From positions 160,001-224,000 of IMG/VR virus record IMGVR_UViG_3300031555_004710: a stretch of DNA of 64,000 nt, one strand, 5' to 3'. A program made the translations under genes and the position numbers. Positions 20,937 through 61,086 of the stretch are shown one piece after another (position 1 is the first letter of the stretch; each line of letters opens with the position of its first letter). Source of the stretch: a virus (Duplodnaviria > Caudoviricetes). The notes below the pieces were generated by a model. The model made no database searches and was not told where the DNA came from. It saw nothing but the letters and a program-made list of their open reading frames with translations.

Positions 20937-21812
20937 ATGCAAGGGAACATAAAAGGAAAATTTAAAGTAATAACACTTTGCGGTTCAAGTAAATTCAAGA
21001 AAGAATTTATAGAAGTTGCAGAAAAACTTTCATTGGAAGGAAATATTGTAATTTCATTAGGATTATTTGGTCATGCTGATAATAAGTTTGCTACAGTGAT
21101 AACTGATGATGTTAAAGCAATGCTTGACGCAGCGCATAAACAAAAAATTGAAATGTCTGATGCAATTTATGTAATAAATCCAGGAGGATATATAGGAGAC
21201 TCAACTAGAAGTGAAATAGGTTATGCAATTAATCTTGGAAAAGAAGTTCATTTCTTAGAACCAATAAAAAGTATTCAAAAAATCGGTGATATATATAAAG
21301 TTATTACTGATAATGATACTCTTGATTCACCTGGAGATCCTATGAATAATGATATTATTACGTATAAAATAGATGATTTTAAGTATTTTGATGATTTATG
21401 TTCATTCTATAGAAATACACCAAAAGAAGAAGTTATAGATAAAAATCTTTTATTTAGAATAACTGCATCTGGTGGATATGATTATCGTAATAAATATATC
21501 GAAGAAGACGATCTTATAAAACCAATTATTGTAGATGGTTTATTGACTTGGATTAAAATACCATTATCATTTGATGGATTATCATTGTCGACTAGTTTCA
21601 AAGACCTTTGTGAAACATTTAATCCACATATACACATGGCTAAATTTGGTAAAGTTTATCAAATTATAAAGGGTGGAGGAAAAGATTATTATGGTGAGCC
21701 TATAATGGATGGTGATTATTTAACATATCATGATACTAAAAAAGGAGTTTATGCATGGAGTAAACTCCACAGTAAATTATTGGAGGTAATACAAAATGAG
21801 CAAATCAAATAA
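20937..21812 (+). CDS. protein with N-terminal nucleoside 2-deoxyribosyltransferase-like (DUF4406-like) domain
   Basis: VITLCGSSKF...HKQKIEMSDAIYVINPGGYIGDSTRSEIGYA. Confidence 0.6.
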   Translation: MQGNIKGKFKVITLCGSSKFKKEFIEVAEKLSLEGNIVISLGLFGHADNKFATVITDDVKAMLDAAHKQKIEMSDAIYVINPGGYIGDSTRSEIGYAINLGKEVHFLEPIKSIQKIGDIYKVITDNDTLDSPGDPMNNDIITYKIDDFKYFDDLCSFYRNTPKEEVIDKNLLFRITASGGYDYRNKYIEEDDLIKPIIVDGLLTWIKIPLSFDGLSLSTSFKDLCETFNPHIHMAKFGKVYQIIKGGGKDYYGEPIMDGDYLTYHDTKKGVYAWSKLHSKLLEVIQNEQIK

Positions 21813-23589
21813 ATGTAATATAGAATACGTTAGAGTAGAAAAGATACCACTTGACTTAGAGTGTTGGCATGATATTGCTACTGGCAATGGTATTAGACTT
21901 ACTTCAGTTGAATCTTTTGATAAAAAGAATCAGAAGATATATAGAGGGCTTCAGTCAGAATTCTTTGGTTCAGACTTTTCATCAGACTGGGCTTTTAAAG
22001 AAAGATATAGTTGTAAATGTGGAAAATATATGGCTAAAGCATATTCTGGAATGGTATGTGATTTCTGTGGCACTAAAGTAGAATATCACGATATTGACCT
22101 TAAGAAAACTGGATGGGTAATTCTTGATAAGTTCGAAGTTCTTTCTCCTATATATTCGGCAAAACTTACAGAAGCGTTAGGTAAGGCTGATGGAGAATCT
22201 GTACTTAGAATGATACTTAATCGTAGATATCATGAAGAAGGGGTAATTGAGTACTCTGAAAAAGAATTAACAAACATAAAGAAGCATCCATTTTCTCAAA
22301 GAGGTATGCAGTGGCTTAGAGAGAATATAATGGAAGTATTAGACTTCTACGAAAAGAGAAAACCTGGTAAACAAAAACTCTTTGAAGAACTTAGAAATGA
22401 ACAGGCTAATATGTGGACACATTCTATTCCTATTTACAGTTCTCTTTTAAGAACAGAACTTCCTGGAGAAAAAGGTTCTAAAAACTTTAAGCTTAAAGTA
22501 AACACTCATTTCAAATCAATCATTCGATTAGTAAATGCAATTAATGATATAGACCCAGATGATATGGATTATATCACATTAAATTCTATAGATATATATC
22601 TTGCAGGAATTCAAAAAGAAATAGACCAAGTATTTGATGTTACTTTTAAAGACCTTACAGATAAAACTGGTATTATAACAAGTAAGATACTCGGTGGAAG
22701 ATATAACTTTAGTTCAAGAGATATTATAGTTCCTGATAGTGGAACTTTAAGGTCTGATGAAGTTATAATAGGATATATACCATTTCTTGAATTATATAGA
22801 TATGAAATTCAGAATGAATATAGAAAAATACATGGCTGTACTCCAGCACAAGCAAATACTGCTTGGAAAAGAGCGACTAATCATTTCGATCCTAAGATTT
22901 ATGCTATAATAGAGCATATGGTTAATGACCCTGAATATAGAAGATATTTAGGTGTATTGATTAACAGAAATCCTAGTATAAACTATGGATCATTTGATTA
23001 TGTTAAAATCGTTGGTGTTAAGAAAGATATCTCGGATAAAACTCTTACAATACCAACACACATAATAGTTCCAATGAATGCCGACTTAACAAATCCGTTG
23101 AGGTCGGGTACAGTAGTAATATTGTACATGTATCTAGGTGAACGCTTAACCAGCGGTGTCTATTCTATAGGCTAACGGTAGAAGTTAGATAAGCATTATA
23201 GATGTCGAATACGCTTCGTAAGAAAAGCTACGGTCCATTTATAATATGGATAGCAGCCAATACCGTGCCAAGCTTCTATATACATATAGTTGAAGGTGTA
23301 GAGACTAATTATTAGGATATATGATGGAAAGCATATATTCGAAGCGCCTAGCTCCTATGTAAATAGGATGAAGATATAGTCCACATATTATTGAAAAATA
23401 GTAATTATTATTGTCGATGGCGATTTGCTTAATGTATTTCGTATTATTGGAATGGATTTCCAGAAACGATTTGAGAAAAATATGAATCCAAGATACAATT
23501 TATTTGTATCCAGAGCAGATGGTAAAGTTAACAAAGAGGTCGTACCAGTTAAGGATGAGCTTGTCTGTTTCTGGGCATTTAATAATTAA
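21796..23589 (+). CDS. non-virion RNA polymerase beta' subunit, N-terminal catalytic part; spliced join(21796..23086,23414..23589), 488 aa
   Basis: Zn finger CKCG..CDFC, ILGGRYNFSSR, NRNPSI; splicing restores AAT GCC GAC T|TC GAT GGC GAT = NADFDGD; exon 2 open to TAA at 23587-23589. Confidence 0.93.
23087..23413 (+). ncRNA. group I self-splicing intron (subgroup IA-like), ORF-less, 327 nt
   Basis: 5' exon CCGACU pairs with IGS GGUCGG (23102-07) with U.G at the splice site; P10 CCGUUGA/UCGAUGG; P3 23134-40/23345-51; P4 ACGGUA/UACCGU; P7 GACUA/UAGUC; terminal G at 23413. Confidence 0.93.
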
Positions 23590-42341: not shown

Positions 42342-42461
42342 TTTGAAATCTTAGGAATATTTGCAAATATCCCTTACAGGATAATAAGAGAGAACTATCA
42401 GAGTTCTCTCTTATTTTTTATTTCGTAATAATAAATTTTTTTATTGATATATTATTATTAT

Positions 42462-42825
42462 GAGTAAGTAAGATTATAATGGTCGGGTGACTCTATAAGT
42501 TCTTGCGGAGATAAACATCGGTAAGATTGGAAATCTTGGGATGTCCGGGGAATGACTAGATACCATTATCTTAAGTGCAATAATCTATCCACCCAATGTC
42601 GATACCAGGCAGAGGGACTAGATTAACACCGAGGGTATTCTTATAATGTTAATTTATAAGAATCATTCAATCAATAAACGAAAATAGTCGATAATAAGTT
42701 GGCAGCTTGCATTGACCACCATACTCAATGCAATACGGAAACCAACTTGACAATCTTCTATAAGTCCATCGAATATTGAAAGATGATTCAAGTAGATTAA
42801 TATTTAGAATACTCTCTTACTGCTC
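42462..42825 (+). ncRNA. putative structured ncRNA of about 365 nt, unknown family
   Basis: Early promoter at 42448; ORF-less; 5'/3' ends pair (42462-73 with 42815-25); several internal helices. Confidence 0.65.
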
Positions 42826-42855
42826 GAAAATCTAATCTAATTTATTTTTTTTTTC

Positions 42856-42899
42856 AAAAAAATATATGAAGCGAAATCACGGGATTTCGCTTCATATAT
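42856..42899 (-). terminator. intrinsic terminator
   Basis: ATATATGAAGCGAAATC/GATTTCGCTTCATATAT 17-bp stem; A7 on the plus strand. Confidence 0.85.
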
Positions 42900-51848: not shown

Positions 51849-51925
51849 TGGTCCGAGTAGCAGGATTTGAACCTGCGGCATCCTGCTCCCAAAGCAGGCG
51901 CGCTACCTAACTGCGCTATACCCGG
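51849..51925 (-). tRNA. tRNA-Pro(UGG)
   Basis: Cloverleaf; anticodon arm CCTGC-TTTGGGA-GCAGG; TTCAAAT T-loop; encoded CCA. Confidence 0.95.
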
Positions 51926-51931
51926 AATTAA

Positions 51932-52007
51932 TGGCTGGGATGGTTGGATTCGAACCAACGAAATGCAGGAGTCAAAGTCCTGTGCCTTACCGCTTGGCTA
52001 CATCCCA
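51932..52007 (-). tRNA. tRNA-Gln(UUG)
   Basis: Cloverleaf; CAGGA-CTTTGAC-TCCTG; TTCGAAT; encoded CCA; late promoter at 52014-25 (-). Confidence 0.95.
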
Positions 52008-58338: not shown

Positions 58339-59406
58339 TTATAACTTGAGTTGATATACATATTCGTTTATCTTTTCTTTAGATACACCAAAATCTTTTT
58401 CATTAGCATATACATTACGATGTATATATACTTTATCAATCCATGTTTGATAGAACGGTTTTCGTAATAATGATAAATGGTCTTTATCCGTTTTATCATT
58501 ATCAGAATATACATGTAGATTAATGTCAGTAGTAACCCCCGTATATATTAAATATTTTAATATGGTACTAAAACTGTAACCACAGCTAGCGAAAAATAAG
58601 GAGTTCTGAGAAGTTTCTGGCTTTAAATTTAAATAAACGCTCAATATATCAAATGTTCCTTCTGCAATATGAATATTAATTGGTTCTGTATATAATAAAT
58701 CAAATGTACTCATGAGAGAATAAAATGTATTTGGGCTTCTATTCAAGATATCCAGAGTAACTTTATAATATCTACCTAGAAATCCAGAGCTATCTATACT
58801 CACATCTCTAAATACAATTTTATTATTATTCGCAGATACAAATCCCAAATATTTTTCATCTAAAGTTTTTACAATTGTTGATTTTAAGCATCCACCCATT
58901 ACATCTGGTACATCTACTGGGATTTTATTTGCATCTATAAATTCCCAGAAGCTTAAAACGATTTTATATTTTGCACAATCTGAAAATGTTAAATTTGTAC
59001 CAAGTCGAGTATTTAGATAATTTAATTTACGATAATTTGTACTACTATCACTAGGTACTGGAACTATAAAATTCTTTACTTTATCTTTAAAATATGAAGT
59101 ATTTGAACTCATCCTACTTAGCAACTCAAGTTGCTTATTTAATGATTGATCATATCCCAATTGTAAATCTTCTAAAACTTGAGGAATTAATATTCCCGAC
59201 TCATTACATTTTAGACATCTATACAGCATTGGTGCATCTGAATTCAGATCTACCAATATTGAAAAATGTCCATGATTGGATTTAACACTGTCGCCACAAT
59301 ACGGACAACGAACTACCCATTGTCTCATATTTGAACTTGGTTTGCAAACTGGTAAAGTTTTTAATTGATTTATTACTTGCTCTTTTATTTCTATACCAGG
59401 TTTCAC
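58339..59406 (-). CDS. DNA primase
   Basis: Zn finger RCPYCGDS..H..YRCLKC; TOPRIM IAEGTFD and YSDND; early-type promoter at 59445-52 (-). Confidence 0.88.
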   Translation of the reverse strand: MKPGIEIKEQVINQLKTLPVCKPSSNMRQWVVRCPYCGDSVKSNHGHFSILVDLNSDAPMLYRCLKCNESGILIPQVLEDLQLGYDQSLNKQLELLSRMSSNTSYFKDKVKNFIVPVPSDSSTNYRKLNYLNTRLGTNLTFSDCAKYKIVLSFWEFIDANKIPVDVPDVMGGCLKSTIVKTLDEKYLGFVSANNNKIVFRDVSIDSSGFLGRYYKVTLDILNRSPNTFYSLMSTFDLLYTEPINIHIAEGTFDILSVYLNLKPETSQNSLFFASCGYSFSTILKYLIYTGVTTDINLHVYSDNDKTDKDHLSLLRKPFYQTWIDKVYIHRNVYANEKDFGVSKEKINEYVYQLKL

Positions 59407-59533
59407 AATTAACCACCACCATTTCTATTAACTATTTCAAATAAATAATACATGATTAAAGTTCATTTATATTTAAATTTTCTATGAGCCACGAAAAATT
59501 GATAAACGAATTTTAATGATATATTATTTGAGT

Positions 59534-60522
59534 GAGTAGTAGAATAAATATATTGGTTTTTAATAAGTTTTACATATATAGGCGTCGTGTATCTATTACT
59601 CCATGTTGATGAAAACTTTAGACGAGGATGGCATGCTCGTTGACTATGATGGTGATAGGGAAAGTCACATAGTTGCACTATAAATATAATGGCCGCATGT
59701 GGCGTGGATCAAACGTGGAGGGTCCGTCGTTATATTTATATAGTGAGCTCGGTTCTATCGTGGACTATCACGTAGGACAGCATATTGATAGATAGGCTAG
59801 GTCGGTCATGTAATGTAGCTCAGTTTACTATATAGTCATAGAATAGACCTGAAAGTCTGAGCGGGCGAATATTGAGTGGATAATCTATAATTATCGATGA
59901 GGCGAAATATCCCATGACAAAGGATGAGGTGTGGTCAAGGCAGAGAATAACTCTAGGCCTTGGTGTAATTGAAATTATAGTTATTCACTCGATTAGTAGC
60001 TTTAATTACCTTATGATACTTTTATAATACTTATTGCCACATTTGAGTATTATTTAAGTTATAAATAGATACCTGAAGTTGCCTAAAGTCTGAAATAAAC
60101 ATTTCAGAAGACAAAGCACGCCAAGCTAAGCGAGTATCGGACTTAGTGGGTTACCGAGTTTCCTGATTGGATAGTATACTAAATGACCCTGTTGTACGAA
60201 ATGGTATCCATCAACTATATTAAAAAATAAATTTATTTAAATATTATGTACTTATAGTTGATGAAAATACTCGGCGCCATAATAGTGATATTATGGGAAA
60301 GTGACTTCTGAGGGGAGGTCACTATATATAAAAACTGTATATAATTTACTTCTTCCCACCTCACTTTTATATATCGATACTATATAAAAGTATTATACGT
60401 TATGATTTCCTTCTTCCTGGAATTTTATCCCTATTCCAGTGTTTAATCATAATGTATTATTAAATGGTAAATTATATACAATATAGTTTTAGAGAAAGTA
60501 TAAAGGGTGCTTTCTCTTTTTT
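59534..60522 (+). ncRNA. putative very large (about 990 nt) structured ncRNA, unknown family
   Basis: Early promoter 59520-34; no credible ORF; raised GC; more than 15 helices; terminator 60491-60522. Confidence 0.75.
60491..60522 (+). terminator. intrinsic terminator closing the large ncRNA
   Basis: AGAGAAAGTA-N7-TGCTTTCTCT plus T run. Confidence 0.8.
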
Positions 60523-60570
60523 ATAAAAAATGTATAGAGAATGAGTATATACTCATTCTCTATATTAATC

Positions 60571-61086
60571 TTACTTATCGCTAGCTTCTGCTTTAGCTAT
60601 CTGAGCATCTATTTTACTGGTGATATCTTTACCAGCTTTAGAGTTCATGTTAGCAGCTTTATTTCTAGCATTTTTGATAATCTTCTTAGCTTCAATCTTA
60701 GCTTTTGCTCCGTATTTAACATATATCTTTTCACGAGTTTCAATAAGAAGATCTCTGTATTTTCTGTATTTACTATACATTGCATCATTATTTATCATTG
60801 CCATTCTAATAGCAGTACGCTTTGCAATACGATTAAAGTTAGCCACTTTCCAATCTTTTATAACGATTCTTTTAGCAGCTTCTGTAGCCATGTCTGCATC
60901 AGAGATTACATCATACAATGCTAATTCTGTACCAGCAGATTCAAGAACTTCAGAAAATTCTTCATCTGTAGCGCATTCATTACGAATAGCAGATAAAACT
61001 ATCTCAGATTCAATAGCAGCATTACCAATAACTGTAACGTCCTCAGCTGTAGGCATCTGCTGAAGTTCATTCATGATTCCTGACAT
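60571..61086 (-). CDS. putative virion head protein
   Basis: Acidic N-half ending in ATE, basic C-half; AACA-N6-TA at 61144-55 (-). Confidence 0.55.
   Translation of the reverse strand: MSGIMNELQQMPTAEDVTVIGNAAIESEIVLSAIRNECATDEEFSEVLESAGTELALYDVISDADMATEAAKRIVIKDWKVANFNRIAKRTAIRMAMINNDAMYSKYRKYRDLLIETREKIYVKYGAKAKIEAKKIIKNARNKAANMNSKAGKDITSKIDAQIAKAEASDK

What the first reader, a model, noticed from the sequence alone, without database searches (positions are those of the whole stretch)
59534..60522. About 1-kb ornate, ORF-less RNA with its own early promoter and terminator: candidate new large phage ncRNA
Seen: TATATTAT-N5-TG promoter (59520-34) with the same spacing as at early genes, no SD-led ORF downstream, raised GC, and a terminator at 60491-60522. 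A roughly 500-nt 5' domain is closed by GTATCTATT 59589-97/AATAGATAC 60064-72 and TAGGCG 59579-84/TGCCTA 60080-85. Internal helices include 59641-48/59668-75, a 15-bp helix 59679-93/59726-40, 59873-92/59973-91 and 60024-33/60044-53. The 3' part has 60154-59/60269-74, 60209-18/60254-63, a GNRA hairpin 60277-96, 60301-22 and a perfect 14-bp helix 60336-49/60467-80. The many G.U pairs imply selection on the + strand RNA. A possible loop-loop pseudoknot joins ATGTGGC 59697-703 with GCCACAT 60036-42. Inference: size and architecture recall ROOL/GOLLD-class phage RNAs, but I recognise no known family.
Basis: partly seen in the sequence, partly recalled or inferred. Interest (0 to 1): 0.9.

Follow-up and report, generated by a model that had tools for sequence, protein, structure and literature searches.

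The report
Stand-alone group I ribozyme-like phage RNA
The proposed "new giant RNA" is a real RNA gene with its own promoter and terminator, but its conserved centre has the fold of a self-splicing group I intron that has lost its exons and substrate helix, while the large 5' domain occurs only in this phage strain; such exon-less ribozyme genes are unusual and their job is unknown.

Summary
The 1,164-nt gap between primase and a virion gene is free of conserved ORFs. It starts at an AR9-type early promoter and ends at a terminator. It folds better on the + strand.

Five related gut jumbo-phage contigs (primase 72-82% identical, plus one at 99%) share only about 240 nt, window 60064-60300, and a conserved 3' hairpin and terminator. 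A seventh contig (85%) shows only its first 25 nt.

Covariation in this core is strong: 18 of 35 modelled pairs change on both sides, against 0 of 500 shuffles. The helices form a group I intron core of the phage IA type: a P3/P7 pseudoknot, P4-P6, P7.1/P7.2, P8, and P9 with a GUGA loop. The junction motifs resemble those of AR9-family introns.

In relatives the predicted start lies 3 nt before P3, so there is no P1/P2, no guide and no exon. Rfam RF00028 does not detect the RNA.

The 530-nt 5' domain and the 138-nt 3' extension occur only in this strain and its 99% relative, and their structure is weakly supported. The cassette is absent from some close relatives.

Best reading: a stand-alone RNA gene derived from a group I intron, of unknown function. 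It is not a new ROOL/GOLLD-like class. This scan has noted exon-less phage group I ribozymes on other DNA before.

The parts
59519..59534 (+). Early-type promoter RTATATTAT-N5-TG; the predicted +1 is G59534
   Evidence: There are 10 copies in the window, all on the + strand, against 1.15 expected. It matches the AR9 early consensus with +1 six nt after TATATTAT. The same motif sits 3 nt before P3 in L002, L004, L142, L151 and L156.
59534..60063 (+). Lineage-specific 5' domain of about 530 nt and up to 43% GC, at the position where P1/P2 would lie
   Evidence: It is present only in the window and L150 and absent in five relatives. MFE is -143.7 with z -2.75, against -97.8 with z -1.68 on the minus strand. 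Comparison of the window with L150 gives weak support. No Rfam hit.
60068..60208 (+). P3 (60068-73 with 60203-08), which encloses P4-P6, the 5' strand of P7, P7.1 and P7.2
   Evidence: C-G changes to G-C at 60072/60204 in 3 of 6 sequences.
60078..60151 (+). P4-P6 domain. P4 is 60078,60080-82 with 60116-19. J4/5 is CUAAA. P5 is 60088-96 with 60101-12. J5/4 is AAA. P6 is 60120-22 with 60149-51. P6a is 60125-30 with 60142-47.
   Evidence: Changes on both sides occur in P4, P5 and P6a, while the junctions are invariant. The segment GACAA-GCA-C-GCCAAG parallels the AR9-type GACAAUCAGCAUCCAAG.
60154..60274 (+). P7 (60154-59 with 60269-74), a pseudoknot with P3. The presumptive G-binding pair is G60156-C60272, followed by A-U.
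   Evidence: C-G becomes U-A in L002, and G-C becomes A-U in L151. The flanking GGGUUACC parallels the canonical GGUUCAAC.
60161..60197 (+). P7.1 (60161-63 with 60169-71), the GAGUAG-type linker, and P7.2 (60174-81 with 60190-97), followed by CGAAAU before P3'
   Evidence: Both hairpins covary. The same GAGUAG and GAAAY linkers are found in AR9-type IA introns.
60209..60263 (+). P8, here a plain AU hairpin. It is a 97-179-nt branched domain in L002, L004, L142 and L151.
   Evidence: The base of the helix is kept with different sequences in each relative.
60264..60268 (+). J8/7: the context reads GAUGAAAAU, against GAUGAAGAU in canonical introns
   Evidence: It is invariant in 6 sequences. The canonical form is seen.
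60277..60296 (+). P9 hairpin with an invariant GUGA (GNRA) loop
   Evidence: 5 of 8 pairs change on both sides and the loop is invariant. The invariant C-G and U-A pairs at 60090-91/60106-07 in P5 fit the known GUGA receptor (and knowledge).
60301..60322 (+). P9.1 hairpin
   Evidence: It is shared with L150 and L002. Other relatives carry different sequence here.
60330..60490 (+). P9.2: the base AAAAC/GUUUU is conserved in all relatives. The tip 60337-60474, including the 14-bp helix, is an expansion specific to this strain.
60491..60522 (+). Intrinsic terminator that ends the RNA
   Evidence: A hairpin plus U-run lies at the same place in every relative.

Best explanation
**What it is.** The locus is a stand-alone early RNA gene. 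Its conserved core (60064-60300, plus P9.1/P9.2 and the terminator) derives from a phage IA-type group I intron and keeps that fold. The kept elements are P3-P8, the P4-P6 domain, P7 knotted with P3, P7.1/P7.2, P9 with a GNRA loop, and invariant J4/5, J6/7 and J8/7.

**What is missing.** It has lost everything that makes an intron an intron. In relatives, transcription is predicted to start 3 nt before P3. So there is no P1/P2, no internal guide, no 5' splice site and no exon, and a terminator follows P9.2. It therefore cannot self-splice.

**Strain-specific additions.** In this strain two expansions were added at places where group I introns tolerate peripheral domains. One is a 530-nt GC-rich block 5' of P3. 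The other is a 138-nt tip on P9.2. P8 is reduced to a plain hairpin.

**Shown:** the transcription-unit signals, conservation, covariation, topology and motif resemblance.

**Inferred:** descent from an intron, and function. My split, given group I origin:
- about 45%: the core still acts as a ribozyme on a helix supplied in trans (or, in this strain, by the 5' domain), as engineered cores lacking P1/P2 do;
- about 35%: it serves as a non-catalytic folded RNA, for example a protein or RNA binder;
- about 20%: it is a selfish relic.
For: **Transcription unit.** The promoter motif is enriched and matches the experimentally mapped AR9 early consensus. The terminator is found. The same promoter, RNA and terminator layout occurs in L002, L004, L142 and L151.

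**Structure under selection.** On the model-fitted alignment of 6 sequences, 97.1% of cells pair, against 82.8% in shuffles. 18 of 35 pairs change on both sides (0 of 500 shuffles). Partners slid by 1-3 columns pair only 29-41%. P7, P8 and P9 also covary.

**Group I topology.** P3 (60068-73/60203-08) and P7 (60154-59/60269-74) interleave, and each has compensatory changes. P4-P5-P6 lie inside P3, P8 lies between P3' and P7', and P9 follows.

**Motif parallels.** These are to RF00028-validated introns of the same window and of AR9-family phages:
- GACAA..GCA..CCAAG;
- GGUU(C)A-C-GA;
- GAGUAG between P7.1 and P7.2;
- GAAAY before P3';
- GAUGAA(G/A)AU before P7'.

**Tertiary contact.** The invariant GUGA L9 and the invariant CU:AG pairs in P5 fit the known L9-P5 contact (plus knowledge: Costa and Michel 1995).

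**Context.** AR9-like phages are the nearest named relatives. They carry 4-19 RF00028 matches per genome, and this window has one in an RNAP beta-like gene.
Against: - RF00028 gives no match on the window copy or on L004, nor in the own genome at E<=10. This is not a matter of the threshold.
- My own models are too narrow to link the two. R1 (our core) does not score the canonical intron.
- R2, built from AR9-type introns, scores the canonical control at only 14.3 bits and does not score ours at all. nhmmer behaves likewise.
- The group I assignment therefore rests on topology and short motifs compared by eye.
- P4 has only 4 pairs, J3/4 is long, and P7 lacks the usual bulge.
- L151 has A-U at the presumptive guanosine-binding pair, which argues against conserved G-dependent catalysis.
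- The cassette is missing in L157, in the P0015 contig and in L152, so it is dispensable.
- The transcript start, the transcript end and expression itself are all inferred.
Confidence: 0.68

Rival explanations
1. This is a new class of large structured phage RNA unrelated to group I introns. The likeness to group I is convergent or over-read.
For: No Rfam family matches, RF00028 included. Neither R1, R2 nor nhmmer links it statistically to canonical introns. The 5' domain has no recognisable relative anywhere.
Against: The helices supported by covariation reproduce the full group I order, including the pseudoknot and the IA-specific P7.1/P7.2. Five junction motifs match those of introns in related phages, at the corresponding places. 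The positive control also barely passes R2, so those negative results are weak.
Confidence: 0.12
2. This is a stranded, decaying intron copy: a selfish cassette without function for the phage that merely happens to be transcribed.
For: It is patchily present among close relatives. It diverges faster than its flanks: 70-90% identity against 97-100% between the window and L150. L151 has lost the G-C of the G-binding pair. The phage family is rich in introns.
Against: Decay would break helices. Instead 97% of cells stay paired, with many double changes, and the junctions stay invariant across primase identities of 72-99%. A dedicated early promoter is kept exactly 3 nt before P3 in five lineages, and a terminator follows each copy.
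Confidence: 0.15
3. The 989-nt unit is two RNA modules in tandem. On this reading the 5' domain (59534-60063) is a separate RNA that arrived with its own promoter, upstream of the older core gene. It would not be an integral domain of one ornate RNA.
For: All relatives except L150 start the core directly at the promoter. A decayed promoter-like AGTATTAT-N6 remains just before P3 in the window. The first bases of the 5' domain (GAGUAGUAGAAU) resemble those of the second orphan RNA at 42456 (GAGUAAGUAAGAU). No helix that joins the two parts is supported.
Against: No terminator lies between the two parts. There is no significant similarity between the 5' domain and the second RNA beyond the first bases. 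Only two copies of the 5' domain are known.
Confidence: 0.3

Closest known systems
Phage group I introns of subgroup IA (T4 td/nrdB/sunY type; the many introns of AR9, PBS1-like and related jumbo phages)
   Same: The order of P3-P9 is the same, as are the P3/P7 pseudoknot and the P7.1/P7.2 insert. The linker and junction motifs match: GGUU.A.CGA, GAGUAG, GAAAY and GAUGAA.AU. P9 carries a GNRA loop, and P9.1 and P9.2 follow.
   Different: There is no P1/P2, internal guide, splice sites or exons. It lies in no gene. It has its own early promoter and terminator. P4 is short and P7 has no bulge. RF00028 does not detect it.
Engineered group I cores without P1/P2 (Tetrahymena L-21-type ribozymes; the sunY core used by Doudna and Szostak on external duplexes): from my own knowledge
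   Same: It is an RNA that begins at or near P3, so it could act only on a substrate helix supplied from outside.
   Different: Those are laboratory constructs with proven activity. Here activity is untested, and not even a short guide remains.
Allosteric group I ribozyme of Clostridioides difficile (a c-di-GMP aptamer upstream of a group I intron in a 5' UTR; PMC3984707)
   Same: A group I ribozyme outside a coding sequence, with a separate folded domain on its 5' side, as in the window copy.
   Different: That RNA still splices, has a P1 and controls a downstream gene. Here no gene follows, and the 5' domain is 530 nt with no recognised aptamer.
GIR1 lariat-capping ribozyme (from my own knowledge)
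   Same: A natural derivative of a group I intron that lacks P1 and has taken on another reaction.
   Different: GIR1 lies inside eukaryotic twin-ribozyme introns and has a P2/P2.1/P10 junction and P15. None of these is seen here, and no Rfam match was found.
ROOL and GOLLD large ornate RNAs
   Same: A long, ORF-less, highly folded RNA in a phage genome.
   Different: The conserved part is only about 240 nt and has a different, known fold.

Membership tests
Group I intron (fold) | P3 and P7 form a pseudoknot that encloses P4-P6, with P8 between P3' and P7' | tested here: met
   P3 is 60068-73/60203-08 and P7 is 60154-59/60269-74. They interleave, and both have compensatory changes. P4-P5-P6 lie inside P3 and P8 lies after P3'.
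Group I intron (fold) | Conserved core junctions: an A-rich J4/5 and J5/4, J6/7, and a purine-rich J8/7 | tested here: met
   CUAAA and AAA, UA, and GAAAAU are invariant in 6 sequences while the helices vary. J8/7 differs by one base from the canonical GAAGAU.
Group I intron (fold) | A guanosine-binding G-C pair followed by A-U in P7 | tested here: inconclusive
   G60156-C60272 followed by A-U is present in 5 of 6 sequences. L151 has A-U instead. There is no bulged base. Binding itself was not testable.
Group I intron (fold) | An L9 GNRA loop with its receptor in P5 | tested here: met
   The GUGA loop is invariant, and so are the C-G and U-A pairs at 60090-91/60106-07. The GUGA-CU:AG rule is from my own knowledge.
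Group I intron (as an intron) | P1 with a U.G pair at the 5' splice site and an internal guide; a 5' exon | tested here: not met
   The predicted +1 is 3 nt before P3 in five relatives. No + strand gene lies upstream.
Group I intron (as an intron) | A terminal G, P10 and a 3' exon | tested here: not met
   P9.2 runs straight into the terminator, and no + strand ORF or conserved 3' flank follows. A terminal G cannot be assigned.
Group I intron (Rfam RF00028) | A match to the covariance model | tested here: not met
   There is no match at E<=10 on the window copy, on L004 or in the own genome. The same model finds the intron at 23151-23403 with 36.4 bits.
Subgroup IA | Extra P7.1 and P7.2 hairpins between P7 and P3' | tested here: met
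   Two covarying hairpins lie at 60161-71 and 60174-97. The linkers match those of AR9-type introns.
ROOL / GOLLD / other Rfam large RNAs | A match to the family's covariance model | tested here: not met
   cmscan with gathering scores, and with E<=10, lists none of them.

The most novel reading that the evidence does not exclude
A natural trans-acting group I ribozyme. On this reading, jumbo phages of animal guts express, from an early promoter, a catalytic core without P1, guide or exons. The core works on separate RNAs, for example completing the splicing of introns that lack a core, or cutting and joining phage or host transcripts. In this strain the added 530-nt 5' domain would supply or regulate the substrate.
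Probability: 0.25. Interest if true: 0.85.

Novelty: new variant of a known kind. Interest (0 to 1): 0.62.

Why it matters
Group I ribozymes are known in nature almost only as introns that remove themselves. The known departures still splice or sit inside other introns: the c-di-GMP-controlled ribozyme, IStrons and GIR1.

This would be different. It is a core without substrate helix, guide or exons, kept under selection as its own early gene in several phage lineages. That would mean the fold has been put to another use. It would be a natural counterpart of the P1-deleted ribozymes used in the laboratory.

It also shows that Rfam's single group I model misses diverged phage copies. Some 'novel large phage RNAs' may therefore be hidden group I derivatives.

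The strain-specific 5' domain remains an unexplained GC-rich RNA block.

Tried and rejected
**Searches for homologues that found nothing**
- blastn of the whole gap against 50,697 phage records gave no match.
- Exact 39-mer and degenerate core patterns found nothing in viral contigs or genome contigs.
- A primase-based search of viral contigs found no relative.
- A 17-mer scan of viral and metagenome contigs returned 16 and more than 80 loci.

**Model-based tests that lacked power**
- R1 finds no paralogue in the own genome and none in AR9, BpSp, LPJP1 or Machias.
- R1 with filters off does not score the canonical intron.
- R2, from AR9-type introns, and an nhmmer profile barely find the positive control and do not find our RNA. 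These tests are uninformative rather than negative.

**Other ideas rejected**
- Permuted intron-exon layout: the 3' tail is only P9.1, P9.2 and the terminator. The terminator hairpin has no U.G pair (reading).
- No similarity beyond shuffles was found among the 5' domain, the core, the second orphan RNA, the canonical intron and the P8 domains of relatives.
- The LPJP1 partial RF00028 hit near its primase looks like an ordinary intron between two annotated CDSs.

**Expression**
- No RNA holder was listed among public runs. The 11 holders are DNA runs of animal faeces or gut.
- The contigs laid showed only the window's allele and the L150 allele.

**Literature**
- Searches of the held library found no report of promoter-driven, exon-less group I cores in phages.

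Full report
**Setting.** The window is bases 160001-224000 of a 236,671-bp IMG/VR virus record. The finding lies in a 1,164-nt gap (59407-60570). On one side is a minus-strand DNA primase (58339-59406, phrog_19847). On the other is a minus-strand 171-aa virion-type protein (60571-61086). An SLT transglycosylase and a family B DNA polymerase follow on the + strand. The nearest named phages, by primase at about 30% identity, are AR9/PBS1-like Bacillus phages, Staphylococcus and Listeria jumbo phages, and phiR1-37. Near-identical DNA occurs in animal faeces and gut metagenomes.

**The observation.**
- The gap has no ORF above 71 aa. That ORF is broken by indels in the closest relative.
- GC reaches 0.43 with a G-rich skew.
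- The promoter-like RTATATTAT-N5-TG at 59519-59534 is one of ten copies in the window. All are on the + strand, against 1.15 expected by chance. One of them lies just ahead of the DNA polymerase gene.
- The motif is the early promoter mapped by dRNA-seq in AR9, AAATATATATTAT-N6-G(+1) (PMC5312081). This puts +1 at G59534.
- A terminator lies at 60491-60522.
- The + strand RNA folds at -273.8 kcal/mol (z -7.6). The minus strand folds at -217.
- No Rfam family matches.

**Relatives split the RNA into a shared core and private additions.** Primase homologues are plentiful in ENA and Logan assemblies. With the same gene order, the gap is 546 nt in L002 (82% primase identity), 605 nt in L004 (72%) and 588 nt in L142 (74%). 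It is at least 600 nt in L151 (79%) and 1,143 nt in L150 (99%).

Alignment shows that all copies share three things: the promoter, then window 60064-60336, and then the last about 50 nt. In L002, L004, L142, L151 and the short contig L156 (85%), the promoter is followed after N6 by G-A-A and at once by the conserved sequence. Only the window and L150 have the 530 nt between +1 and that point (59534-60063) and the 138 nt at 60337-60474.

The cassette is absent in L157 (79%), in the P0015 contig (77%, gap 162 nt) and in L152 (69%, a 62-aa ORF instead). In more distant relatives the gene order is lost.

**The core is under selection for structure.** A covariance model of its 5' half (R1) refits six sequences. 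On that alignment 97.1% of cells pair, against 82.8% after shuffling. 18 of 35 pairs change on both sides, which none of 500 shuffles reaches. Sliding the partners by 1-3 columns drops pairing to 29-41%. The alignment is fitted to the model, so it leans towards the structure, but the margin is large. My own count on an independent MAFFT alignment adds P7, P8 and P9.

**The helices.**
- P3 is 60068-73 with 60203-08. C-G becomes G-C in three sequences.
- P4 is 60078 and 60080-82 with 60116-19.
- An A-rich internal loop (CUAAA / AAA) follows.
- P5 is 60088-96 with 60101-12.
- P6/P6a is 60120-30 with 60142-51.
- After two bases comes the 5' strand of P7 (60154-59). It pairs with 60269-74 and so crosses P3. 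C-G becomes U-A in L002, and G-C becomes A-U in L151.
- Two small hairpins follow, at 60161-71 and 60174-97.
- P8 is 60209-63.
- A five-base junction follows.
- P9 is 60277-96, with an invariant GUGA loop.

This is the order and pseudoknot of a group I intron core with the P7.1/P7.2 insert of subgroup IA. The two invariant pairs C-G and U-A in P5, next to freely covarying pairs, fit the known receptor of a GUGA L9 loop. That rule comes from my own knowledge of Costa and Michel 1995.

**Comparison with real introns.** RF00028 finds one intron in this window, at 23151-23403, at the end of an RNAP beta-like gene (36.4 bits). It finds 19, 15, 12 and 4 matches in AR9, BpSp, Machias and LPJP1.

| Position | AR9-type introns | This RNA |
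|---|---|---|
| J5/4, P4', P6 | GACAAUCAGCAUCCAAG | GACAAAGCACGCCAAG |
| P6', J6/7, P7 | GGUUCAACGACUA | GGGUUACCGAGU |
| Between P7.1 and P7.2 | GAGUAG | GAGUAG in three of six (one-base variants in the rest; GAUAG in the window copy) |
| Before P3' | GGAAAY | CGAAAU |
| Before P7' | GAUGAAGAU | GAUGAAAAU |

Each match sits at the structurally corresponding place.

Statistical links failed. RF00028 gives nothing on our RNA. R1 does not score the canonical intron. A model of AR9-type 3' halves (R2) scores the validated intron of this window at only 14.3 bits and ours not at all. These models are too narrow to decide the matter. The assignment therefore rests on topology plus motifs, and I put it at about 0.8.

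**What it is not.** It is not an intron in the working sense. There is no P1, P2, guide or 5' exon, because the upstream DNA is the primase gene on the other strand. After P9 come P9.1, P9.2 and the terminator, with no 3' exon. A permuted layout does not fit either. L151 carries A-U at the pair that should bind guanosine, so G-dependent chemistry may not be what is conserved.

**The private 5' domain.** It is GC-rich and folds modestly better than shuffles: z -2.75, against -1.68 on the other strand. Only two copies exist, about 90% alike, while the flanks are 97-100% alike.
- On a joint fold, no pair breaks. Two change on both sides and 14 on one side. That fold is chosen to fit both sequences.
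- On the window's own MFE, 13 changed pairs are kept and 12 are broken, which is no better than the other strand.
- Individual hairpins look real: 59641-75, which has several changes on both sides; the long AU helix 59679-93/59726-40, whose tip is 27 nt shorter in L150; and 59873-92/59973-91.
- The proposed loop-loop pseudoknot is lost in L150.
- Its first bases resemble those of a second promoter-driven ORF-less RNA at 42456-42856. Otherwise there is no similarity.

It may be a peripheral domain at the P2 position, or a second RNA module fused upstream.

**Mechanism.** Shown: signals of an early transcription unit, a conserved and covarying fold, and a group I-like core without substrate parts. 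Inferred: because the active-site junctions are invariant while the helices drift, the core is probably used as a folded unit. It may act as a ribozyme on a helix supplied from elsewhere, or as a binding scaffold. Its patchy presence makes it an accessory gene. No RNA data were available (listed under tried and rejected).

**Earlier notes of this scan.** The notes describe exon-less or rewired group I ribozymes in other phages. I did not test them. They agree that the phenomenon recurs.

Noticed in passing
window 23151-23403 (+): A group I intron recognised by RF00028 (36.4 bits, below the gathering score of 50). It has canonical GAAGAUAUAGUCC and a P7.1/P7.2-type insert. It sits at the 3' end of ORF 21796-23175, which matches an RNA polymerase beta subunit family (phrog_2987).
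   Followed up: partly
window 42447-42856 (+): A second ORF-less RNA with the same early promoter and a long U-run at its end. By eye it carries motifs like the group I R and S elements (GGGACUAGAU; CGAAAAUAGUCGA). RF00028 and R1 do not match it. It may be a second exon-less group I derivative.
   Followed up: partly
window, 10 sites (20900, 26998, 36076, 36969, 41079, 42447, 46790, 59519, 61198, 62139): The early-promoter motif RTATATTAT-N5-TG occurs ten times, always on the + strand, against about one expected. One copy lies 11 nt ahead of the DNA polymerase start.
   Followed up: partly
records KU878088.1, KT895374.1, MW349128.1, MZ422438.1: AR9, vB_BpuM-BpSp, Machias and LPJP1 carry 19, 15, 12 and 4 RF00028 matches. 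Many lie in tandem clusters, for example AR9 95.3-96.8 kb and 150-153 kb. This phage group is unusually rich in introns.
   Followed up: no
L152:2727-2915 and L157:1-315: At the same site between primase and the virion gene, some close relatives have no RNA cassette at all. One of them has a 62-aa ORF instead. The site behaves as a swap point for accessory cassettes.
   Followed up: partly
L004:3548-3719, L142 and L151 equivalents: In three relatives P8 carries a 158-179-nt branched domain with conserved stretches (for example GGCAAGUUUAAAUACAGCC). In the window it is replaced by a plain AU hairpin. Its role is unknown.
   Followed up: no
window 51852-52007 (-): Two adjacent tRNA genes (RF00005, 69.7 and 65.3 bits).
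   Followed up: no
window 60351-60440 (+): The strain-specific tip of P9.2 exposes C/U-rich runs (CUUCUUCCCACCUCAC, UUUCCUUCUUCC) that resemble anti-Shine-Dalgarno sequence. Another first-stage entry noted this as well. It was not tested.
   Followed up: no
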